From NCBI GenBank assembly GCA_001275005.1, contig JWZX01003061.1, positions 1 to 41,996 on the forward strand: 41,996 bases of DNA. The letters run 5' to 3'. A program made the translations under genes and the position numbers. This document shows positions 1 to 41,862 of this stretch, one piece after another. Position 1 is the first letter of the stretch. Each line of letters begins with the position of its first letter. The DNA is from Chrysochromulina tobinii (lineage: Eukaryota). Under the pieces are notes generated by a model that saw only the letters and a list, made by a program, of their open reading frames with translations, did no database searches and was not told where the DNA came from.

Positions 1-191
1 GGGGAGGGGGGCGAGGGGGGGGGCGCCGTGGTGAGCACTTGCATGCAGCTCCTCGAGCCGTTGAGCTTGCGTCGGCCACCAGAGGGCACTGAGAGGCCAC
101 TCAGCGCCCAATCGGAGGCCAATCGGAGGCCAATCAGCGGCCAATCAGCGGCCAATCAGCGGCCAATCTGGTGCACTCAGCGGCTGCTCGC
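1..191 (-). other. GC-donor intron (truncated) with 10-bp repeat and the shared 3' module
   Basis: Donor CAG|GCGAGC; (CTGATTGGCC-like)n repeat at about 105-170; module TGCATGCAAGTGCTCACCACGGCGCC at 22-47 followed by a pyrimidine tract. Confidence 0.8.
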
Positions 192-3149
192 CTGCTCGAT
201 GTAGCGAGAGTCCAGATGTGCGTCGTCTTGGGCACGCGTTGAGGGGCGAGCGGTCCGTATGAGGTGAAGCACGCCGTAATGCTCCGCGAGCTCCTCCATG
301 CCCACCTGCCATCCATCGCACTCAGTCGCAATCAGTCGCACTCAGTCGCACTCAGTCGCACTCAGTCGCACTCAGTCGCACTCGAGGGTACTCAGGCAGG
401 CAGGCAGGTCGAAGGGCTCCCACCCGCCCTTAGAAGGTCATTAGAAGGTCATTAGAAGGTCATTAGAGGGTCATTAGAAGGTCATCAGAAGGTCATCAGT
501 CGAAGGGCTCCCACCCGCCCGTCGGCATTCTTCTTGAGCTCGGACCAGAAGAACTCAAACTCGCGCTCCCCCTGCTGCACCGCGAGCTTCTGCTGCCTCT
601 CTCGCTGAGTGGCCTCGTGCCGCGCCCTGGCGGCGAGCGCGCCGTCCCGGGCGCCACCCGCGTCGTGCTGGGCGTTCACCGCGGGCGCCGACGCCAACGG
701 CAGCACGAAGTACGCAAAGAACCTGCGGGGAGGCGATGGCGCGGTGGTGAGCACGTGCATGCATCCAGGAGCGGACCGACGGCCAACGGCCTCCCTTACT
801 TGGTGCGCAGCTCGGAACGGGAGATGGAGCCCTCGGCGTCGGCGTCGATTGCGAGCATCAGCCGTTGGAGAGAGACGACGGCGACCTCGTCCCTGCGAGA
901 TGCCACGCGCTGCCCAAGCGAGAACGGATGCATGCGCCGAGCCATCAGTGGCAATCATTACATCAATCAACAGCAATCATACAGCAATCATACAGCAATC
1001 AAACAGCAATCAAACAGCAATCATACAGCAACATAGAGCAATCAGAGGCCATCAGCACTCGTGGAGCTCACCTGCAGATCGATGAGCCCGTACGCGAGGA
1101 CGCAGGCGACGAGCGAGAGCGCAAAGGCAAGCAGCTTGGGCAGACGCTCCAAGTCCGCGAGCGCCGTGATGAGCGCGTGCGGCAGCGGCAGCGCCCCGAG
1201 CCATCTTGCGGCATCGAGCTCGAAGATCTCGAGAGCACTTGCGTTCACACTTGCGTTCACACTTGAGTTCACAAAGGAGTTCCCAATGGTGGGCGGGAAC
1301 AGCGAGCCGCTCATGGCTGCTGCGGCTGTGGCGGCGGCGGTGGCGGAGGATGCGGAGGAGGAGGCGGCGGAGGCGGCGGAGGCTGCGGTGGCGGAGGTGG
1401 CTGAGGTGCCGTCGATGCCAAACAGCAGTTGACCGAGGAGGGTGACCACCTCGGCGCGTGGGGCGAGGTACACGAGGGTGATCACCGAGAAGCCGAGGCA
1501 GACCTGCGCCATCAGAGGCATCAGAGGGTCATCAGAGGGTCATCAGAAGGTCATCAGAGGGTCATCAGAGGGTCGTCAGAAAGTCATCAGAAGGTCATCA
1601 GAAAGTCATCAGAGTGTGGAGAGGCCTAGGCCTTACCTTGGCTGGCGTGGCGGTGACACACGGGAATGTGAGTAGACGGTTGATGAAGAGTTGCACGCAC
1701 GTGCACACGAGCAGCAGATCGAGCCATCTGGCCAACGGCTCGTCCCACCATCGGGGCACCTGGTAAAGGTTGAGAGCAACGAGCCAGAAGATGGCGAGCC
1801 AGAGCGACCAGCTGAGCACGAGCAGCCCGATGGTCGTGGGGAGCCAATGCAGCCCGCGACGCTCCTGTGGGGGAGGGGGGCGCCGTGGTGAGCACTGGCA
1901 TGCGGCGGTTGCATGCTGGGGAGCCCATGCAGCCCGCGACGCTCCTCGTGACGAAGCTTCTGCTGGCGAAGCTCGTGACGAATCTGACGAATCTGACGAA
2001 TCTGACGAATCTGACGAATCTCTGTACCTCGTGACGAAGCTTCTGCTGACCCCGTAGGGCGCGCAAGGCGACACGGCCACCCTCGACGAGCGCGTCGTAG
2101 TGCCAGAGCAGCACGAAGGCGCCCCAGAGCAGCAACGAGCGCACGACGAACAAGAAGAACTCAAATGGGAACGTTGTGTGCGAGCCGGGGTAGAAGACGG
2201 CGCAGGCGTACGCGGGGCTGCTCGGGACGGCGCCTGCGAAGTCCTCGAGTCTCAGCTCGCCGTCGGAGGGCTGCGTGGCGCACACGAAGAGCTTGGCGAA
2301 GCCCACGCAGCCGGCGACGAGGCCCGAGGTGAAGAACTGGAGCTTCTTCGCTGTGACGATGAACTCGATGAGGCCGTACCTGATTAGGGAGGCCATCCGA
2401 AGTCATCAGAGGTCAACAGGGGTCATCAGAGGTCATCAGGGAGAGCCCAGGCAAGGTGGGCACGCTGCCACTTACTCGTCGAAGTCCGTAAAGTACTTTG
2501 CGGCTGCGAGAAGGATGACCATCACGTCGGAGACGCCGTACAGAGGAAAGAGGAAGAGGAGCCTGATGAAGAGCGAGAGCGGGCTGCGGATCGTGCCCCA
2601 GATGGTCAAATCGGACGGCTCCATCGCGTAGATCAGCCGGGCCGCGCACCACTTGAGCCAACCGCGCGGTGGATCGGCGTGGTGCATATCCTGCTTGGCG
2701 CGGAGCTCGCGGAATTCGAGGCCGAGGTCGAGCATGACCGAATCGACAAGAGAGCGCTTCACCTCAGGCCAGAGCTCGCCGTACACGTTGTCGACGACGA
2801 TGCGCACGGCTCGCGGCATGGCGTGGTCGTGCAGCGAGTTCAGCATCGTCGCGCCGATCGAGCTCATCATGCGGCTTGCCTGCAGGGCGATGACCTCATC
2901 GGCTTTTTGCATGCTGACGCGCCTTAGGGAATTGAAGCCCTGGTCCACGAGATTCTGCACTTCGCCCACCACTGGTATCTGGTTGATTACCGTCTCGTAC
3001 GCAATGGCCATATTGGCTTGGGCTTCGACAGCATGCCGAGCGGCAAAGTCGAAGAAAAGCTCATCCTCGGGTGGCGCGGCGGTGTTGCGCGGCCCGGTAA
3101 TCGTGGCCCACTCGGTCCGCGATGAAGGCTCTCGGTCGCGGGCGGCCAT
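192..3149 (-). CDS. Multi-exon multi-pass membrane protein with C-terminal EF-hand-like loops, 3'-truncated by the window edge
   Basis: Exons 3149-2476, 2379-2028, 1864-1637, 1503-1072, 909-800, 722-515 and 305-192 join in frame, with phases checked at every junction. Several hydrophobic segments are present. EF-like loops are DADAEGSISRSEL and, across a splice junction, KNADGRVGMEEL. Confidence 0.85.
306..514 (-). repeat. Intron with (CTAATGACCTT)n and (CTGAGTGCGA)n arrays and a duplicated donor junction
   Basis: GT at 514-513 and CAG at 308-306. Positions 410-429 repeat 501-520. Confidence 0.85.
723..799 (-). other. Short intron carrying a diverged copy of the shared 3' module
   Basis: GTAAGG...TGCATGCACGTGCTCACCACCGCGCC...CCCCGCAG; splicing restores the frame (RTK-FFAY). 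Confidence 0.85.
910..1071 (-). repeat. Intron with (TGATTGCTGTW)n array
   Basis: CAG|GTGAGC donor and GGGCAG acceptor; 11-bp repeats at about 965-1045. Confidence 0.8.
1504..1636 (-). repeat. Intron with (CTGATGACCYT)n array
   Basis: AAG|GTAAGG donor and GCGCAG|GT acceptor; repeats at about 1510-1613. Confidence 0.85.
1865..2027 (-). other. Intron containing a copy of its own spliced junction, a 9-bp array and the shared 3' module
   Basis: GAG|GTACAG donor; (ATTCGTCAG)n at about 1976-2020; junction copy at 1917-1965; module at 1879-1903; CCCACAG acceptor. Confidence 0.9.
2380..2475 (-). repeat. Intron with CTGATGACCT repeats and CCTCCCTAATCAG acceptor
   Basis: GA|GTAAGT donor; phase 2 join gives DFDE-YGLIEF. 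Confidence 0.85.
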
Positions 3150-36193: not shown

Positions 36194-38603
36194 ATGCTCG
36201 ACCTCAATCGTCGATCTGTCGCCGTCGCTGCGACGGCGCTCATGGCCGTCGTCATCGTCTGGACCCGCCAGCCGGCTTCTTCATCAGCACCCGCGTCTTC
36301 TCCATCTACCACAGCCGCTCCTGCTCACCAAGATATACACCGCGCCATCTCCGAAGCCGTGCTGGCCGTTAGTCAAGGCGGAGCGGGCAGCGGGGCTGAT
36401 TCTGCAATGGACGAGGCTGTTCGCTTGTTGTCGGCGCTACGGACACGAATTTCAGCGTCTTCGGTGGAGACGGTGCAAGGCGAATCACCAAAGACTGGCC
36501 ACAATGAACATTTGCTTTGGCCGCCGGCTCCGCCATCTGCTGGGTCCGACCTAATCTCAGAACCGCCGATCGCTCAGTCGCTGGGCGCGCCCGTGCCGCT
36601 ATCGACGCCTTCGCCATATCCCCCGCCACCACCGGTCGCAAGGTCCTCTTCAGCTGCCATGCCTGCAGCGTCTGTTGCGCCCGCCTCGCCGCAGTCTGCA
36701 GTGTCCCGCTTCCTACGCCACTCGCCAGCACTGCTGCGGCTACACGCGCATGCCACGCAGCTGCGGCTGTACGTCTACGAGCCGCCCCTTTCCGCCGGCT
36801 GGTCGGCGCGCAATCTCACGCGCAGCTTCCCGCGCTGCGCCACCTTTCAGTGGAGTGGAGATGCAGAGTTGACGGAACGGATACGCACCCACCCGACGCT
36901 CGCCACTACCGACCCCTCGCGTGCGGATTATTTCGTGGTGCCCTTCCTCTCCAAGTGCTACTTCAACTACGTGGCCAAGTACCGGCTCGCGCCTATGGAC
37001 AACACGCTGCACGCGGTCCTCAGCTACCTAAAATGGAGCGGACCGTGGTGGTCGCGCCATCCTGAGCGTCATCTCTTCTTCTTCATGAGTGGTGCGCGGA
37101 CTTGATTGCGACTGATGGCATTCTTCATGAGTCGTGCGTGGACTTGATTGCGACTGAAGGCATTCTTCATGAGCGGTGCGCGGACTTGATTGCGACTGAT
37201 GGCATTCTTCATGAGTGGTGCGCGGACTTGATTGCGACTGATGGCATTCGATGGCGTCGGATGGCGTCCGACGGTGCATGATTGCCTCCACTTGATGGCT
37301 TCTGATGGCCTCTGATCACCTTTGTCGTCCTCCAGGTGTCGGCGCGGGCATAGTGCCCTCCTGGCGGCGCTCCCTGCAGCAGAGCGTCTTCATAGTCGCC
37401 GAGGGCGATAGGCAAGTGGATTACTTCCGCGAGGGCCACGACATCGTAGTGCCGGGCAAGGCGAGCATGGCCCTCTGAGTGCCCTCTGATTGCCCTCTGA
37501 TAGCCCTCTGATGACCTCTGATTGCCTTCTGAGTACCTTCTGATTTCGATTTCCCTTTGATTGTCCTCCGTAGCCAACTGATTACCCTCCGAGATTACCC
37601 CCGAGATTGCAGGTGAGCACCCACCACAAGCGTGAGCAGAGGTCGCCGTTGGAGCGCAAGTACATGGGGGTCTTCCGCGGATCACTCGATGCAGCGCTTC
37701 GCGACTCCGAGGGCGGGCGCGTGCGCAAGCGCAACAAGCTGCGCCGCTGGCTCGCCCAGACTCTGGAGGGCGATCGTGGCTTCATCTTCTCAGGTCGCAA
37801 ATCCAAACGGTATGCCGAGGAGACTGATGACTGATGACTGATGACTGATGACTGATGGCTGATGACTGATGACTGATGGCTGATGACTGATGACTGATGA
37901 CTGATGACTGATGACTGATGGCTGATGACTGATGGCTGATGGCTGATGACTGATGACTGATGGCTGATGACTGATGGCTGATGACTGATGACTGATGACT
38001 GATGGCTGATGACTGATGGCTGATGACTGATGACGGCCTGCCGAGGAGCCTGATGCCCTCGGATGGCGTCTGTGTGCGTCTGAGTGCGTCTGAGTGCGTC
38101 TGGTTCCCTCCTTCATCAGGTACGTCGACGAGATGGACAACTCTCGCTTCTGCATCATCCCGCGTGGCAACACACCGTGGACGCGTCGCTTTTTCGATGC
38201 GGTCGTGCGTGGCTGCATCCCGGCCGTGCTGTCCGACCCGGTGAGCTTTCCTTATGAGAGGCTCATCGACTTCCGAAACTTGACCATCAAATTGCCCGAG
38301 CAATGGACGCCGCACCTCGCGCGCGAGCTGCGTGCCGTGAACGCGAGCGCCATCGTGGCGCTCCACCGCAACTTGATGCGTCTCTGGCCTGCTTTCGTGT
38401 ATGACAGCGAGCGCGGCGGGTGCGCGTTCGAGATGCTACTGCTCGAGCTCGCTGCCCGCCGCCGACACTTTTATGACACGTGGCCCGCGGCCACTCCCAA
38501 CACGCCGCAGCACTTTTGGTCGCCCGTGCGCGGCGGCCTCTTTGAGTTGCCTGAGGCGCGCAAGGTCGGCCCCAGCTGGGGCGCGGGCGCATTGCCGCAT
38601 TGA
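36194..38603 (+). CDS. Exostosin-family (GT47) glycosyltransferase, 4 exons
   Basis: Exons 36194-37091, 37336-37460, 37613-37809 and 38120-38603 join in frame. Motifs LYVYE, TTDPSRADYFVVP, HDIVVPG, SRFCIIPRG and GCIPAVLSD; type II N-terminal anchor. Confidence 0.92.
37092..37335 (+). repeat. Intron with four 42-bp tandem units spanning the donor junction
   Basis: Units start at 37079, 37121, 37163 and 37205. Confidence 0.9.
37461..37612 (+). repeat. GC-AG intron with (CCCTCTGAKKG-like)n repeats
   Basis: AAG|GCGAGC donor and TTGCAG|GT acceptor; phase 0. Confidence 0.8.
37810..38119 (+). repeat. Intron with about 30 copies of the 7-mer CTGATGR
   Basis: Array at 37824-38033; acceptor CCTCCTTCATCAG|GTAC. 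Confidence 0.9.
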
Positions 38604-39045
38604 CGCGACGCCGAGGCCCGCGTATCGCGATGTCGCGATGACCTGATGTGCCTTAGTCCACTTTTTGCAGGCAACGGCCAAGAACGCACTTCGTTCTAGT
38701 TTTACGCACATGGTCCACAACTTCACGCTACGTTCCTACGTCCTCGCTGCGCGGCGTGTTCCGTGTAATGGGATCGGTCGTCGCACGGGAACACTCCAAG
38801 CATGTCGAGTCACACGGTCCGCCGGGCCCACCGCCAATCGCCTCTTCTGAGGAATGAGCCATTGAGGTATGTAGCTCGAACGATGTGGAGAACATGGTGG
38901 ACCTGTGCCTCGCCGGCGCATAAAATTTAAGGCGCGTTTGGCTTATTTAGGGGTTCGCAGTTCTGACCCCCACGTGCCACGACCTCGCTCCTCATTCCCA
39001 CAGATGGCGGGTGCATTCTAACATGCATGCCCACGCACATAAGGC

Positions 39046-41862
39046 TCAAGCTGAAACAGATGTCCCGTCAGCGTCCCCATCGGACGCGTTTGCCACGACG
39101 CGCGTCCTCGGCAAGAACGACTCGCGCTGCCTGCGCACGACCTTGCCGATGCTGTTGACGCGGGGCTCCTCCTTCTCAGCCCTCTCTGGAGAAGGCTGTT
39201 GGCGCCACTGGCGGTTGGAGTAGAAGGCGAGCGCCTCGGCCTTGTGGCCAGCGGTGGGCGCCGCCGCGATGATGATGGAGCGGCGCTCGGCGCCCGCGGC
39301 CTCGGTAGAAAGCTGCTTGACTCGCCAAGGCATGTTGAGCCGAGTCGCGACCGCCATCTCCTGCGCGCGCGCCATCTCGAGCACTTTGGCCATCTCCTCC
39401 TGAGTCTGCGAGAGCGTCGCCTCCATGGCCGAGAGCGCGAGCCGCGCCGCGACGGCCTCGGCCTGCGCCCGCTCCTTCTCCTTCTCGAGCTCCTTTTCGA
39501 GCAGCGCGGCGGCCTGCGCCGCCGCTTGGGCCGCGGCCGCGGCCATACGTTGCTCCATGAGCTCCGCGGCCTGCGTCTGGGTCGCCGCGACCTCTGCCTG
39601 CAATGCGACGCGCTCCTCCGCCGCTTGAGCTCGAGAGCTCTCAAGCTGCGCGCGGAGGCTCGCGAGCTCCGCTTGCGTCGCCTCGAGCCTTGCGGCCGAT
39701 TGCACGCTGGTCGTGTTCAGCTGCTCGCGCACCGCCTCCAGAGCTGCCTGCGCAGCAGAGGCATTCTGGGCCGCTACCGCCGCCATGACCTCCGCCTCCT
39801 GTTTCTTGGCCGCCATGACCTCCGCCTCTTGCTGCTTGGCCGCCTCGCGACGCGCGAGCTCATCCAAGCACTCCCGTAGCAACGACTGGCTCTCATTGAG
39901 CTGATGACGGCTCTCATTGAGCTCCCTCGCCACCCGCCCCTGCTGCGAATTCGTCATCGCAAGCTCCGCTTTGCATGCGCCCAGCTGCGAATTCGTCATC
40001 GCAAGCTCCGCTTTGCATGCGCCCAGCTGCGAATTCGTCATCGCAAGCTCCGCTTTGCATGCGCCCAGCTCGGCGCTCCGCAACTCGAGTTGCGCGGCCT
40101 CTTGCTCGCGCCTTACCTTGAGGTCCGCGAGGACCGTCTCAAACTGCGCCTGGGACACCTCGAACTCCTTGACGAAACTCCACGCCTGCGCCTTGGAATG
40201 GAGGCAGGCCTCCAGCTCGGTTCGGACTGCCTGCAGCTGCACGTCGGTCTGGGCCTGCGTCTGCTTACTGGTGAGCAGCTCCGCGCGCACCGCATCGAGC
40301 TCCTCGCGCCTTGTCTGCAGCTCGGTTTCAAGCGTCCGCACGGTCGCCTCGAGGGCAGTTCCAGCGTCAAGGAGCGCCGCGGACCGCAGCTTCGAGGCGG
40401 CCAATTCGGCTCCAAGTTCGGCCAATTCGGCTCCAAGTTTGGCCAATTGCGCCTCGTGCTGGCGCGCCACCTCCGCCTGCTGCCGCGACTGCTGCCGCGA
40501 CGACGCCTCTGCTTGCGCCCGCGCCGCCTCCACAGCCTGAAGCGCCGCCGTCTCGGCGCGCCGCGCCGTGGCGAGCGCCGCCTCGGACTCGGCGCGCGTC
40601 GTTTGGAGAGTCGCCGCCGACTCGACGGACAACGTCTGCATGGCGAGCCGCACCTGTGGGGAGAGGGGTTCGGGCGCCGTAGTGAGCACTTGCATGCAGG
40701 CCTCGAGTCGACGGACAACGTCTGCATGGCGAGTGCCATGGCGAGCGCCGTCTGCATGGCGAGTCGCACCTCTAGAGCTCGACCAACCCAATCAGACGCA
40801 ATCAGACGCAATGAGACGCAATCAGACGCAATCAGACGCAATTCGTCACTGGCACCTCTGTCAGCTCGACCAATCCAATCAGACGCAATCAGACGCAATC
40901 AGACGCAATTCGTCACTGGCACCTCTGTCAGCACGACCAATCCAATCAGACGCAATCAGACGCAATCAGACGCGATTCGTCACTGGCACCTCTGTCAGCT
41001 CGACCTCCTTCGCGGCCACGAGCCTCTCGAGGGCTGCCTGGGCCTCGGCCAGCTGCGCCTCCTTCTCGGCCACCTGCCGGCTCAAGGCTGCCTGGGCCTG
41101 TGACGATTGCGCTTCGGTCGCCGCCACCCTCGCCTCGAGAGCCGCCTGCGCAGCGGCCAGGCTCGCCTTCTCCTCCACATTCCAGCGCAGCTCCTCCCGG
41201 GCCGCGGCCAGCTGCACCTCCTTCTCAGCCACCTGCTCGAGCAGCGCCGCTTGCGCCTTCGACGATTGGTCTCTGCTCTCGGCCAGCTTTGTCTCGAGAG
41301 CCGCCTGTGCCGCGACCAGACACGACGTCTCCTCTAAACTCTTGCGCAGCTCCTCCTGTGCTGCGGTCAGCTGCGCCTCTCGCTCGCCCACCATCTTCTG
41401 CAGCGCCTCCTGCGCCTCCGAGGACTGTGCTTGCGTCCGCGCCAGCCTCGTCTCGAGAGAAGCCTGCGCCGCCGCGAGCTGGGCCTCCTTGTCGGCCACC
41501 GTCCTCTCAAGGGCACGCTGAGCCTCCGATCGCTGCGCTCGCACCGTCTCAAGCTCCGCACGAGCGACCTCAAGCTGCTTTGCAGCCTCCGACTTGGACT
41601 TCGCAGAGGCTGCAAGATCGTCGCGCAGGTTCGCCACGTCGGCCTCTAGTGCGCGCCTTGCAGCTCGGAGTGCCTCGACACGCCCCTCCATCTCGGCGTA
41701 CACCCACTCCAACTTCTTATCGTTGAAGACTGTGACCGCATTCGGATCGAAGGGCTGCTCAGGCCCGTCCATGGCGACAACTCGGCCACGTGCCGTGGGT
41801 GTGCGGAGGATGGCTGGGCCCAAGAATGTTGTGCTCACCAGCAGCAGCATTGAAGAGACCAT
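39046..41862 (-). CDS. Long Ala/Glu/Gln-rich coiled-coil protein with signal plus transit-like leader, 2 exons
   Basis: Exons 41862-40990 and 40653-39046, both whole-codon lengths. Leader MVSSMLLLVSTTFLGPAILRTPTARGRVVAM; LGACKAELAMTNSQ occurs three times. Confidence 0.8.
40654..40989 (-). other. Intron with 67-bp donor-junction repeats, a spliced-junction copy and the shared 3' module
   Basis: GAG|GTGCCA donor; (CTGATTGCGT)n repeat; junction copy at 40749-40784; module at 40673-40698; CCCCACAG acceptor. Confidence 0.9.

What the first reader, a model, noticed from the sequence alone, without database searches (positions are those of the whole stretch)
40654..40989. Second, independent intron with the same self-junction architecture
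Seen: in an unrelated gene 39 kb away, the intron reads donor, CTGATTGCGT repeats, then GGTCGAGCTCTAGAG+GTGCGACTCGCCATGCAGACG (40784-40749). That is a near copy of the spliced junction GGTCGAGCTGACAGAG|GTGCGGCTCGCCATGCAGACG. A perfect 26-nt copy of downstream-exon sequence follows (40708-40733 = 40622-40647), then the same 3' module and a CCCCACAG acceptor. The order of parts matches the 1865-2027 intron. Inference: a repeatable mechanism rather than an accident.
Basis: partly seen in the sequence, partly recalled or inferred. Interest (0 to 1): 0.85.

Follow-up and report, generated by a model that had tools for sequence, protein, structure and literature searches.

The report
Introns copied piecewise from neighbouring introns
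In this alga, short predicted introns typically consist of a 12-50 base repeat of the gene's own coding sequence plus a piece shared with other introns, often a nearby one; the "spliced junction inside the intron" is likely the original intron-free site left in the middle after two such copying events, which would let introns spread along genes without being classic jumping elements.

Summary
Confirmed, and general. The 336-nt predicted intron (40989-40654, minus) holds a near copy of its own exon junction. In 135 metagenome loci plus the window, 127 of 164 acceptors with the same 3' module have a copy of the next exon's start just before the module (controls 11/164, 19/806). The commonest form (68 of 112) is simpler: duplicated exon (supplying GT) + module. 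Self-junctions (11 of 112) look like a second duplication-with-insertion across the donor, so the junction is likely the preserved empty site, not captured mRNA. The insert's source can be traced. One allele pair differs by an 81-nt insert: a 33-nt perfect duplication plus 48 nt identical to an intron end 476 nt away. Two introns carry another exon's copy from introns 1.7 and 2.5 kb upstream. The nearest-matching module lies on the same contig for 27 of 109 sites (1.9 expected). Best reading: local template switching during DNA repair or replication (inferred). No RNA data were obtained; splicing rests on frames and homologues. The scan earlier noted the repeat-flanked family in this genome (e1-2577349); the local template and the self-junction explanation are added here.

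The parts
40990..41862 (-). Upstream exon, 291 codons from ATG, coiled-coil-like protein with no Pfam match; ends ...GACAGAG
40654..40989 (-). Predicted intron, 336 nt, phase 0, GT...AG, in-frame TGA if unspliced
   Evidence: splicing inferred
40923..40989 (-). Unit 1 (67 nt): donor GTGC, 10-nt CTGATTGCGT repeats, 16-nt copy of upstream exon end (1 mismatch)
40856..40922 (-). Unit 2 (67 nt): same, with a perfect 16-nt copy of the upstream exon end
40770..40855 (-). Unit 3 (86 nt): longer repeat array, 15-nt damaged copy of the upstream exon end (40784-40770)
40749..40769 (-). Copy of downstream exon start (20/21); with 40784-40770 it forms the self-junction, read as the preserved pre-insertion site
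   Evidence: reading inferred
40708..40748 (-). Internal re-duplication of the downstream-exon copy, ending in the perfect 26-mer 40733-40708 = 40647-40622
40654..40697 (-). 3' module (44 nt): conserved core with a predicted CTCAC branch point, pyrimidine tract, CCCCACAG acceptor
39046..40653 (-). Downstream exon, 535 codons plus stop, starts with GT
1865..2027 (-). Second self-junction intron (163 nt): donor, 9-nt repeats, 21-nt upstream-exon copy (1965-1945), 28-nt downstream-exon copy from 1944, module at 1903; downstream exon starts GA, not GT
   Evidence: homologues P0005 and P0006 run without a break over this site
740..762 (-). Further module copy in the same gene as the 1865-2027 intron
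24..46 (-). Further module copy in the same gene, cut by the contig end

Best explanation
The intron is likely the scar of two successive duplication-with-insertion events, each probably made by a DNA polymerase that left the gene, copied 40-60 nt of another (often nearby) intron and rejoined 12-50 nt behind where it left. Step 1 (pattern shown, enzyme inferred): the start of the future downstream exon is duplicated and an intron 3' end (branch point, pyrimidine tract, AG) lands between the copies. If the duplicated stretch begins with GT or GC, it serves as donor and the whole insert would be spliced out exactly. Step 2 (pattern shown in other loci, inferred here): a stretch spanning the new exon-intron boundary is duplicated with a piece of repeat-rich intron 5' end between the copies. 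The outer GT stays in use, and the inner copy of the exon end next to the older copy of the next exon's start reads as a 'spliced junction'; it is the original intron-free site. Step 3 (seen): the 67-nt unit was amplified to three. Selection would keep only events that splice cleanly (inferred). Each new intron can act as template for the next, so intron parts would spread along genes.
For: 127 of 164 module acceptors carry the downstream-exon copy (controls 11/164 and 19/806). 68 of 112 are simple (copy + module, 54-95 nt), 62 of the 68 starting GT/GC. Predicted frames agree across 48 of 55 confidently called simple introns, 29 of 35 for non-3n lengths. A 77-nt one splits human DHX37 residues 431|432 exactly. 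Empty/filled pair L012 (also L045) versus L088: 81-nt insert = 33-nt perfect duplication + 48 nt; 53 nt are identical to the intron end 476 nt downstream, including 2 nt at entry and 3 nt at exit shared with the target. L053 and L075: an intron's own exon copy switches at a 5-nt shared word into the exon copy of an intron 2,534 or 1,698 nt upstream. Nearest module on the same contig: 27 of 109 versus 1.9 expected (max 8.5 in 2000 permutations), and 23 of 81 versus 2.2 in a subset of near-identical assemblies. Mirror class exists: 27 of 62 repeat-starting stretches have a copy of the preceding sequence further on, 0 of 62 controls. In self-junction introns the donor-side bases follow the intronic copy rather than the exon in 4 of 5 informative cases.
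Against: No enzyme was identified and no RNA data were obtained. For 82 of 109 sites the nearest module is not on the same fetched contig piece, and 10 of 24 loci of 8 kb or more hold one module site only. The finding's own module has no neighbour in the window closer than 38 kb downstream, although the contig ends 1 kb upstream. Only one empty/filled pair was found; loss by recombination between the repeats cannot be excluded, and that insert is 3n without a stop in one frame. Neighbour similarity could partly be later gene conversion. In L004 the donor side matches the exon, not the intronic copy. The 2027-1865 intron's exon starts GA, so there the order of steps must differ or the event was a single multi-switch one. 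The strongly conserved core across unlinked genes needs either selection or long-range copying.
Confidence: 0.62

Rival explanations
1. A non-autonomous mobile element moved by a dedicated enzyme (HUH/Replitron-like endonuclease or a non-LTR/Penelope-like reverse transcriptase) makes long variable target-site duplications, carries flanking bases of its parent and tends to hop locally.
For: One conserved core in very many unlinked genes (about 2000 stretches estimated). Ten copies of a longer archetype with donor, repeats and core. Replitron-1 insertions show variable duplications and ends derived from the parent's flank, and a Replitron protein is reported from one locus of Chrysochromulina tobinii (PMC10288648, passages).
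Against: Copied pieces have no fixed ends: 3' halves, 5' halves, truncated cores and a second acceptor type (21 of 38) all show the same duplication. No terminal inverted repeats or A-rich tail are seen. The core folds weakly (-5.1 kcal/mol). Switch points sit at short words shared with the target. No such enzyme was searched for, as no whole genome was held.
Confidence: 0.2
2. Reverse transcription of the unspliced pre-mRNA with template jumps, followed by recombination of the cDNA into the gene, gives the same structures through an RNA intermediate.
For: Modules are almost all in the sense direction (89 sense, 1 antisense, 92 undetermined). All 27 listed rows with a same-locus nearest module are same-strand.
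Against: Sense bias is also expected from selection and from direct-orientation switching. The gene at 41862-39046 appears to have no other intron to serve as a same-transcript template. Only 7 of 169 same-locus pairs were on opposite strands, so the test has little power.
Confidence: 0.12
3. A piece of spliced mRNA (or its cDNA) spanning the junction was written into a pre-existing intron, for example in RNA-templated repair.
For: The two exon copies abut exactly at the junction in both window introns. The 2027-1865 case lacks GT at the exon start, which the simple two-step order does not explain.
Against: The commonest form has no older intron around the copy (68 of 112). An empty allele exists. 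Homologues run without a break over the 2027-1865 site. Donor-side bases follow the intronic copy, not the exon, in 4 of 5 informative cases, and 4 of 11 share 9 or more bases past the donor versus 0 of 110 random pairings.
Confidence: 0.04
4. Assembly artefact or chance slippage in repeat-rich DNA.
For: Short-read assemblies can mishandle tandem units; the number of 67-nt units in this intron could be off.
Against: The same architecture appears in many independent assemblies. Overlapping loci are 99.8-100% identical. Copies differ from their exons by substitutions and indels. Allelic ORFs P0003, P0004, P0021 and P0022 carry the 2027-1865 intron with its exon copies. A 44-nt perfect duplication survives in L003.
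Confidence: 0.02

Closest known systems
Introners / introner-like elements that carry one splice site and co-opt the other from the target-site duplication (Polarella glacialis classes 4, 5, 6, 8, 10; Aureococcus; marine Chrysochromulina sp. family 5)
   Same: One splice site is brought in, the other comes from duplicated exon, and the downstream exon starts with a donor-like dinucleotide (bioRxiv 10.1101/2020.10.14.339549, parts 1-2 of 4 read; PMC9860276 passages).
   Different: Those duplications have a fixed length of 3-8 nt (4 nt in the Chrysochromulina example). Here they are 12-50 nt and variable, make up about a third to half of the intron, the copied piece has no fixed ends, and the template is often local.
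Intron gain by tandem genomic duplication (Rogers model)
   Same: A duplicated exon segment becomes part of the intron and supplies a splice site (PMC3443670 passages).
   Different: That model takes both sites from a duplicated AGGT. Here the branch point and acceptor come from another intron, and 42 of 68 simple cases share at most one base upstream of the GT.
Same-gene intron duplications (SGD) in fungi
   Same: An intron sequence reappears at another site of the same gene (PMC3609843 passages).
   Different: SGDs are near-identical whole introns, rare (82 in 24 fungi, almost none of the gains). Here only part of an intron is copied, joined to a long exon duplication, and the pattern is common.
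Intron gain at staggered double-strand breaks (Daphnia pulex)
   Same: New introns with direct repeats of adjacent exon and internal repeats from repeated events (PMC4202315 passages).
   Different: Repeats there are 4-12 nt. Here they are 12-50 nt and the insert is a recognisable part of another intron.
Replitron-1 of Chlamydomonas reinhardtii (HUH transposon)
   Same: Variable target-site duplications and ends that carry bases from the parent's flank (PMC10288648 passages).
   Different: Replitrons are 0.9-3.6 kb with defined termini; the passages read do not describe them making introns. No HUH partner or defined termini are shown here.

Membership tests
Spliceosomal intron (40989-40654) | GT...AG ends, branch point and pyrimidine tract, removal restores the frame | tested here: met
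Spliceosomal intron (40989-40654) | Removed from the transcript | not testable with these tools
   No RNA data obtained; no homologue spans this junction. Indirect support at other sites:
Introner (operational definition of Gozashti 2022) | At least four introns in unrelated genes share sequence | tested here: met
   182 unique module-plus-acceptor sites
Introner (operational definition of Gozashti 2022) | Similarity begins within 10 intronic bases of both boundaries | tested here: not met
   Criterion read. The first 12-50 nt of simple introns are locus-specific exon copy. A few archetype copies lack the shared 3' end instead
Cut-and-paste DNA transposon / MITE | Fixed-length target-site duplication of 2-9 nt | tested here: not met
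Cut-and-paste DNA transposon / MITE | Terminal inverted repeats | tested here: not met
   By inspection of the printed inserts, whose 5' ends vary by locus; no formal repeat search was run
Non-LTR / SINE-like retroposition | Variable-length target-site duplication | tested here: met
Non-LTR / SINE-like retroposition | A-rich or simple-repeat tail at one fixed end | tested here: not met
   Ends printed show neither a tail nor a fixed boundary
Non-LTR / SINE-like retroposition | Cognate reverse transcriptase in the genome | not testable with these tools
   No whole genome held
Replitron / HUH element | Short terminal direct repeats, right-end hairpin, HUH transposase | tested here: inconclusive
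   Core folds to -5.1 kcal/mol only; parent-flank carry-over is seen; transposase not searched
Tandem genomic duplication (AGGT model) | Both splice sites come from the duplicated exon segment | tested here: not met
   Acceptor comes from the module in the simple class; some mirror-class cases do use a duplicated AG|GT
Same-gene intron duplication (SGD) | Near-identical whole intron elsewhere in the same gene | tested here: not met
   Only 40-60 nt of the 3' part is shared in the traced cases

The most novel reading that the evidence does not exclude
This lineage gains introns by contagion without a transposon. Ordinary host break repair or fork restart makes 12-50 nt tandem duplications filled with sequence from a nearby intron, the duplication supplies one splice site and the copied piece the other, and every new intron becomes a template. 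Intron 'families', their repeat arrays and self-junctions are by-products, and introner screens that need similarity at both ends would miss the process.
Probability: 0.45. Interest if true: 0.86.

Novelty: new variant of a known kind. Interest (0 to 1): 0.74.

Why it matters
Where new introns come from is a long-standing question, and the prevailing answer is transposons (PMC12130899, abstract and passages). Here new introns can be traced to a specific nearby donor, with switch points visible to the base and an empty allele in hand. That makes a repair-driven, self-propagating route testable in a natural population. The published introner filter needs similarity at both intron ends, so it would skip these introns. 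The 2025 survey lists 0 introner families for the one Chrysochromulina assembly that my supplement search found; whether the window comes from that assembly is not known. Other genomes scored as introner-free may hide the same process. It also bears on gene models: the public protein for this gene covers only the last 303 residues.

Tried and rejected
No whole genome was held and no sequencing runs were obtained, so there is no RNA test and no enzyme search. Homologue searches across the finding's junction gave nothing: one partial hit; none; 0 of 8 ORFs in the collection; two weak coiled-coil hits. Rfam: 0 matches in the window. The viral collection gave one locus. Pfam scans of 19 exon pieces did not show profile contiguity across any intron, and a PDB search with a 30-aa piece found nothing; contiguity came only. 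One search's upstream-copy test had a self-overlap bug and was replaced. The idea that intronic copies are improved towards a donor consensus found little support: mismatches in the first 8 positions are 0-4 of 62 each. None of the fetched loci overlaps the window. The protein atlas did not answer, so the taxon rests on recall. Capture of spliced mRNA and assembly artefact were considered and rejected (see rivals). Literature: 10 searches found no description of this long-duplication, local-template route. Subscription papers are mostly absent from the library, 2 of 14 supplements of PMC12130899 were not searched, the supplement of PMC9860276 was cut when stored, and bioRxiv supplements are closed.

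Full report
Setting. The window is eukaryotic DNA of about 61% GC. A protein it encodes is held by NCBI, UniRef and EukProt on a contig of 41,996 nt, so the window is a whole contig. No whole genome and no sequencing runs were available.

The observation. The predicted intron 40989-40654 (minus, 336 nt) separates a 291-codon and a 535-codon open frame, and unspliced it stops after six codons. In order it holds: three tandem units of 67, 67 and 86 nt, each made of GTGC, 10-nt repeats and a 15-16 nt copy of the upstream exon end; a 21-nt copy of the downstream exon start (1 mismatch); a re-duplicated piece of that copy ending in a perfect 26-mer; 10 nt of other sequence; and a 44-nt module ending CCCCACAG. 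The junction scores 23 in the intron, at most 15 in 486 other stretches. Only the outermost GT gives an open frame. The intron at 2027-1865 has the same order, and two more distant homologues (53% and 41% identity) run without a break across that site with the same spacing.

How general. A scan of metagenome contigs for the 23-nt core gave 135 loci, of about 2000 stretches estimated; one more came from the viral collection. With the window these gave 341 core hits, 270 unique, 182 with an acceptor, 164 with enough flank. Of the 164, 127 have a copy of the downstream exon start within 120 nt before the core (score 12 or more), against 11 of 164 for exon sequence 150 nt further on and 19 of 806 swapped pairs. 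Of the 112 whose copy starts within 6 nt of the exon start, 68 are simple (exon, copy, module, exon; 54-95 nt; 62 start GT or GC), 18 have a repeat-rich body with no upstream-exon copy found, 11 are self-junctions, 10 are tandem copies, 4 follow an older acceptor and 1 has a short flank. The finding's own intron is not among the 11, because the aligner anchored on its second partial copy. A second acceptor type shows the same copy in 21 of 38 cases (controls 7/38, 18/170; noisier because of repeats). 48 of 81 cores without an acceptor also sit between direct repeats.

Are they introns? A codon model trained on five window ORFs finds the frames on both sides agreeing in 48 of 55 confidently called simple cases (one third expected), and in 29 of 35 whose length is not a multiple of three. 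A 77-nt simple intron in a DHX37-like gene (L015) splits the protein exactly between human residues 431 and 432. Pfam scans of 19 exon pieces gave no further contiguity. Direct splicing evidence is lacking, and for the finding's junction no homologue was found.

Where the insert comes from. L012 and L045 lack 81 nt present in L088. The insert is a 33-nt perfect duplication starting GTGAGT plus 48 nt; 53 nt are identical to the end of the intron 476 nt downstream, including 2 nt at entry and 3 nt at exit shared with the target. In L053 and L075 an intron's own exon copy turns, at a shared 5-nt word, into the exon copy belonging to an intron 2,534 or 1,698 nt upstream and continues into that intron's module variant. 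This fixes the direction and shows the template was that intron. Across 165 independent sites, the most similar module lies on the same contig for 27 of the 109 that have a neighbour (1.9 expected, maximum 8.5 in 2000 permutations). In 113 sites from assemblies whose overlaps are 99.8-100% identical the figure is 23 of 81 (2.2 expected), and variant cores share a derived letter in 17 of 59 same-contig pairs against 166 of 1594 others. Against: most sites have no traceable local donor in the fetched flank, 10 of 24 loci of 8 kb or more hold a single site, some neighbour similarity may be later conversion, and one allele pair cannot separate gain from precise loss.

Why a self-junction. The mirror event is common. 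Of 62 GT/GC-starting repeat stretches with clean upstream sequence, 27 have a 13-30 nt copy of what precedes them further on, mostly 70-90 nt later, versus 0 of 62 controls; some of these are tandem intron-internal repeats. In several loci the insert brings a donor and the acceptor comes from the duplicated exon end. In the 11 cases the bases after the outer donor match the intronic copy for a mean of 5.6 nt (2.4 in random pairings; 9 or more in 4 of 11 versus 0 of 110). Where copy and exon differ they follow the copy in four cases (L033, L046, L051, L054) and the exon in one (L004); six are uninformative. So what was duplicated is the unspliced boundary, not spliced RNA. For the finding the shared bases are GTGC, which is not diagnostic, so the two-step order is inferred by analogy. 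The 2027-1865 intron, whose exon starts GA, needs the reverse order or one multi-switch event.

Mechanism. Shown: long variable duplications, inserts matching intron parts, local donors in three traced cases (two with fixed direction), short shared words at the switches. Inferred: a polymerase that switches template and rejoins behind itself, as in alternative end joining or fork restart, which is known to give templated insertions and tandem duplications from nearby DNA (PMC7407515, passages); and selection for events that splice cleanly. I put this at 0.62, a dedicated mobile element at 0.20, an RNA route through pre-mRNA at 0.12, capture of spliced mRNA at 0.04.

Comparison with what is known. 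It works like introners that co-opt a splice site from their duplication, but those have fixed 3-8 nt duplications (bioRxiv 10.1101/2020.10.14.339549, parts 1-2 of 4 read; PMC9860276, passages, methods section 15 and supplement rows; PMC11282704, passages). It fails that survey's both-ends criterion. The 2025 survey lists C. tobinii with 0 families and a few small unclassified haptophyte families, one with 10-bp terminal direct repeats (PMC12130899, passages and supplement rows). It overlaps with tandem genomic duplication (PMC3443670, passages), same-gene intron duplications (PMC3609843, passages), Daphnia break-repair introns (PMC4202315, passages) and Replitron-1 insertion scars (PMC10288648, passages), without meeting the defining features tested for the first two. 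The C. tobin genome paper mentions introns once (PMC4580454, passages). Ten searches found no account of this route; coverage limits are listed under Tried and rejected. The scan itself had noted the repeat-flanked family in this genome (e1-2577349) and read it as a mobile element.

Verdict. Real, general, and more informative than the single intron suggests. New variant of a known kind; interest 0.74.

Noticed in passing
window 37092-37336 (+): Intron in the exostosin (GT47) gene starts with four tandem 42-nt units, each holding the upstream exon end, the donor and a repeat unit: the same donor-spanning duplication, amplified.
   Followed up: partly
window about 514-305 (-): Intron with an internal copy of the exon end plus donor between two different repeat arrays.
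   Followed up: partly
window 1-2500 and 36800-41000 versus 4889-36008: The introns I saw cluster in genes at both ends, while ten long ATG-started ORFs of 333-1698 aa lie uninterrupted in between; this fits local spread of introns but was not tested.
   Followed up: no
P0003 (allele of window 2396-1629): This allele's ORF reads as if the downstream-exon copy plus module of the 2027-1865 intron is present twice, so that intron appears polymorphic in structure. A similar extra unit separates L024 from L058.
   Followed up: partly
L010, L056, L059, L061, L066, L078, L101, L112, L123: A longer archetype joins donor, two repeat units, a CTGCCTT linker and the module core; the different repeat arrays and the module may all descend from one roughly 70-nt intron.
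   Followed up: partly
window 2027-1965 (-): The 9-nt repeat unit of this intron shares 7 bases with the upstream exon end, as if the array was seeded locally by repeated switching back to the exon.
   Followed up: no
L015 (minus strand): A DHX37-like helicase gene carries at least six module copies within about 3 kb, several with the same rare core variant.
   Followed up: partly
L001 (viral collection): A contig filed as viral carries the module with repeats and an exon copy; likely host DNA or an integrated virus.
   Followed up: no
window 39049-39957 (-): The public protein for the finding's gene (P0014, 303 aa) starts inside the downstream exon, so the gene model appears to omit the upstream exon and this intron.
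   Followed up: partly
window 37462-37614 (+): Probable GC-AG intron in the exostosin gene; 4 of 68 simple introns also start GC.
   Followed up: no
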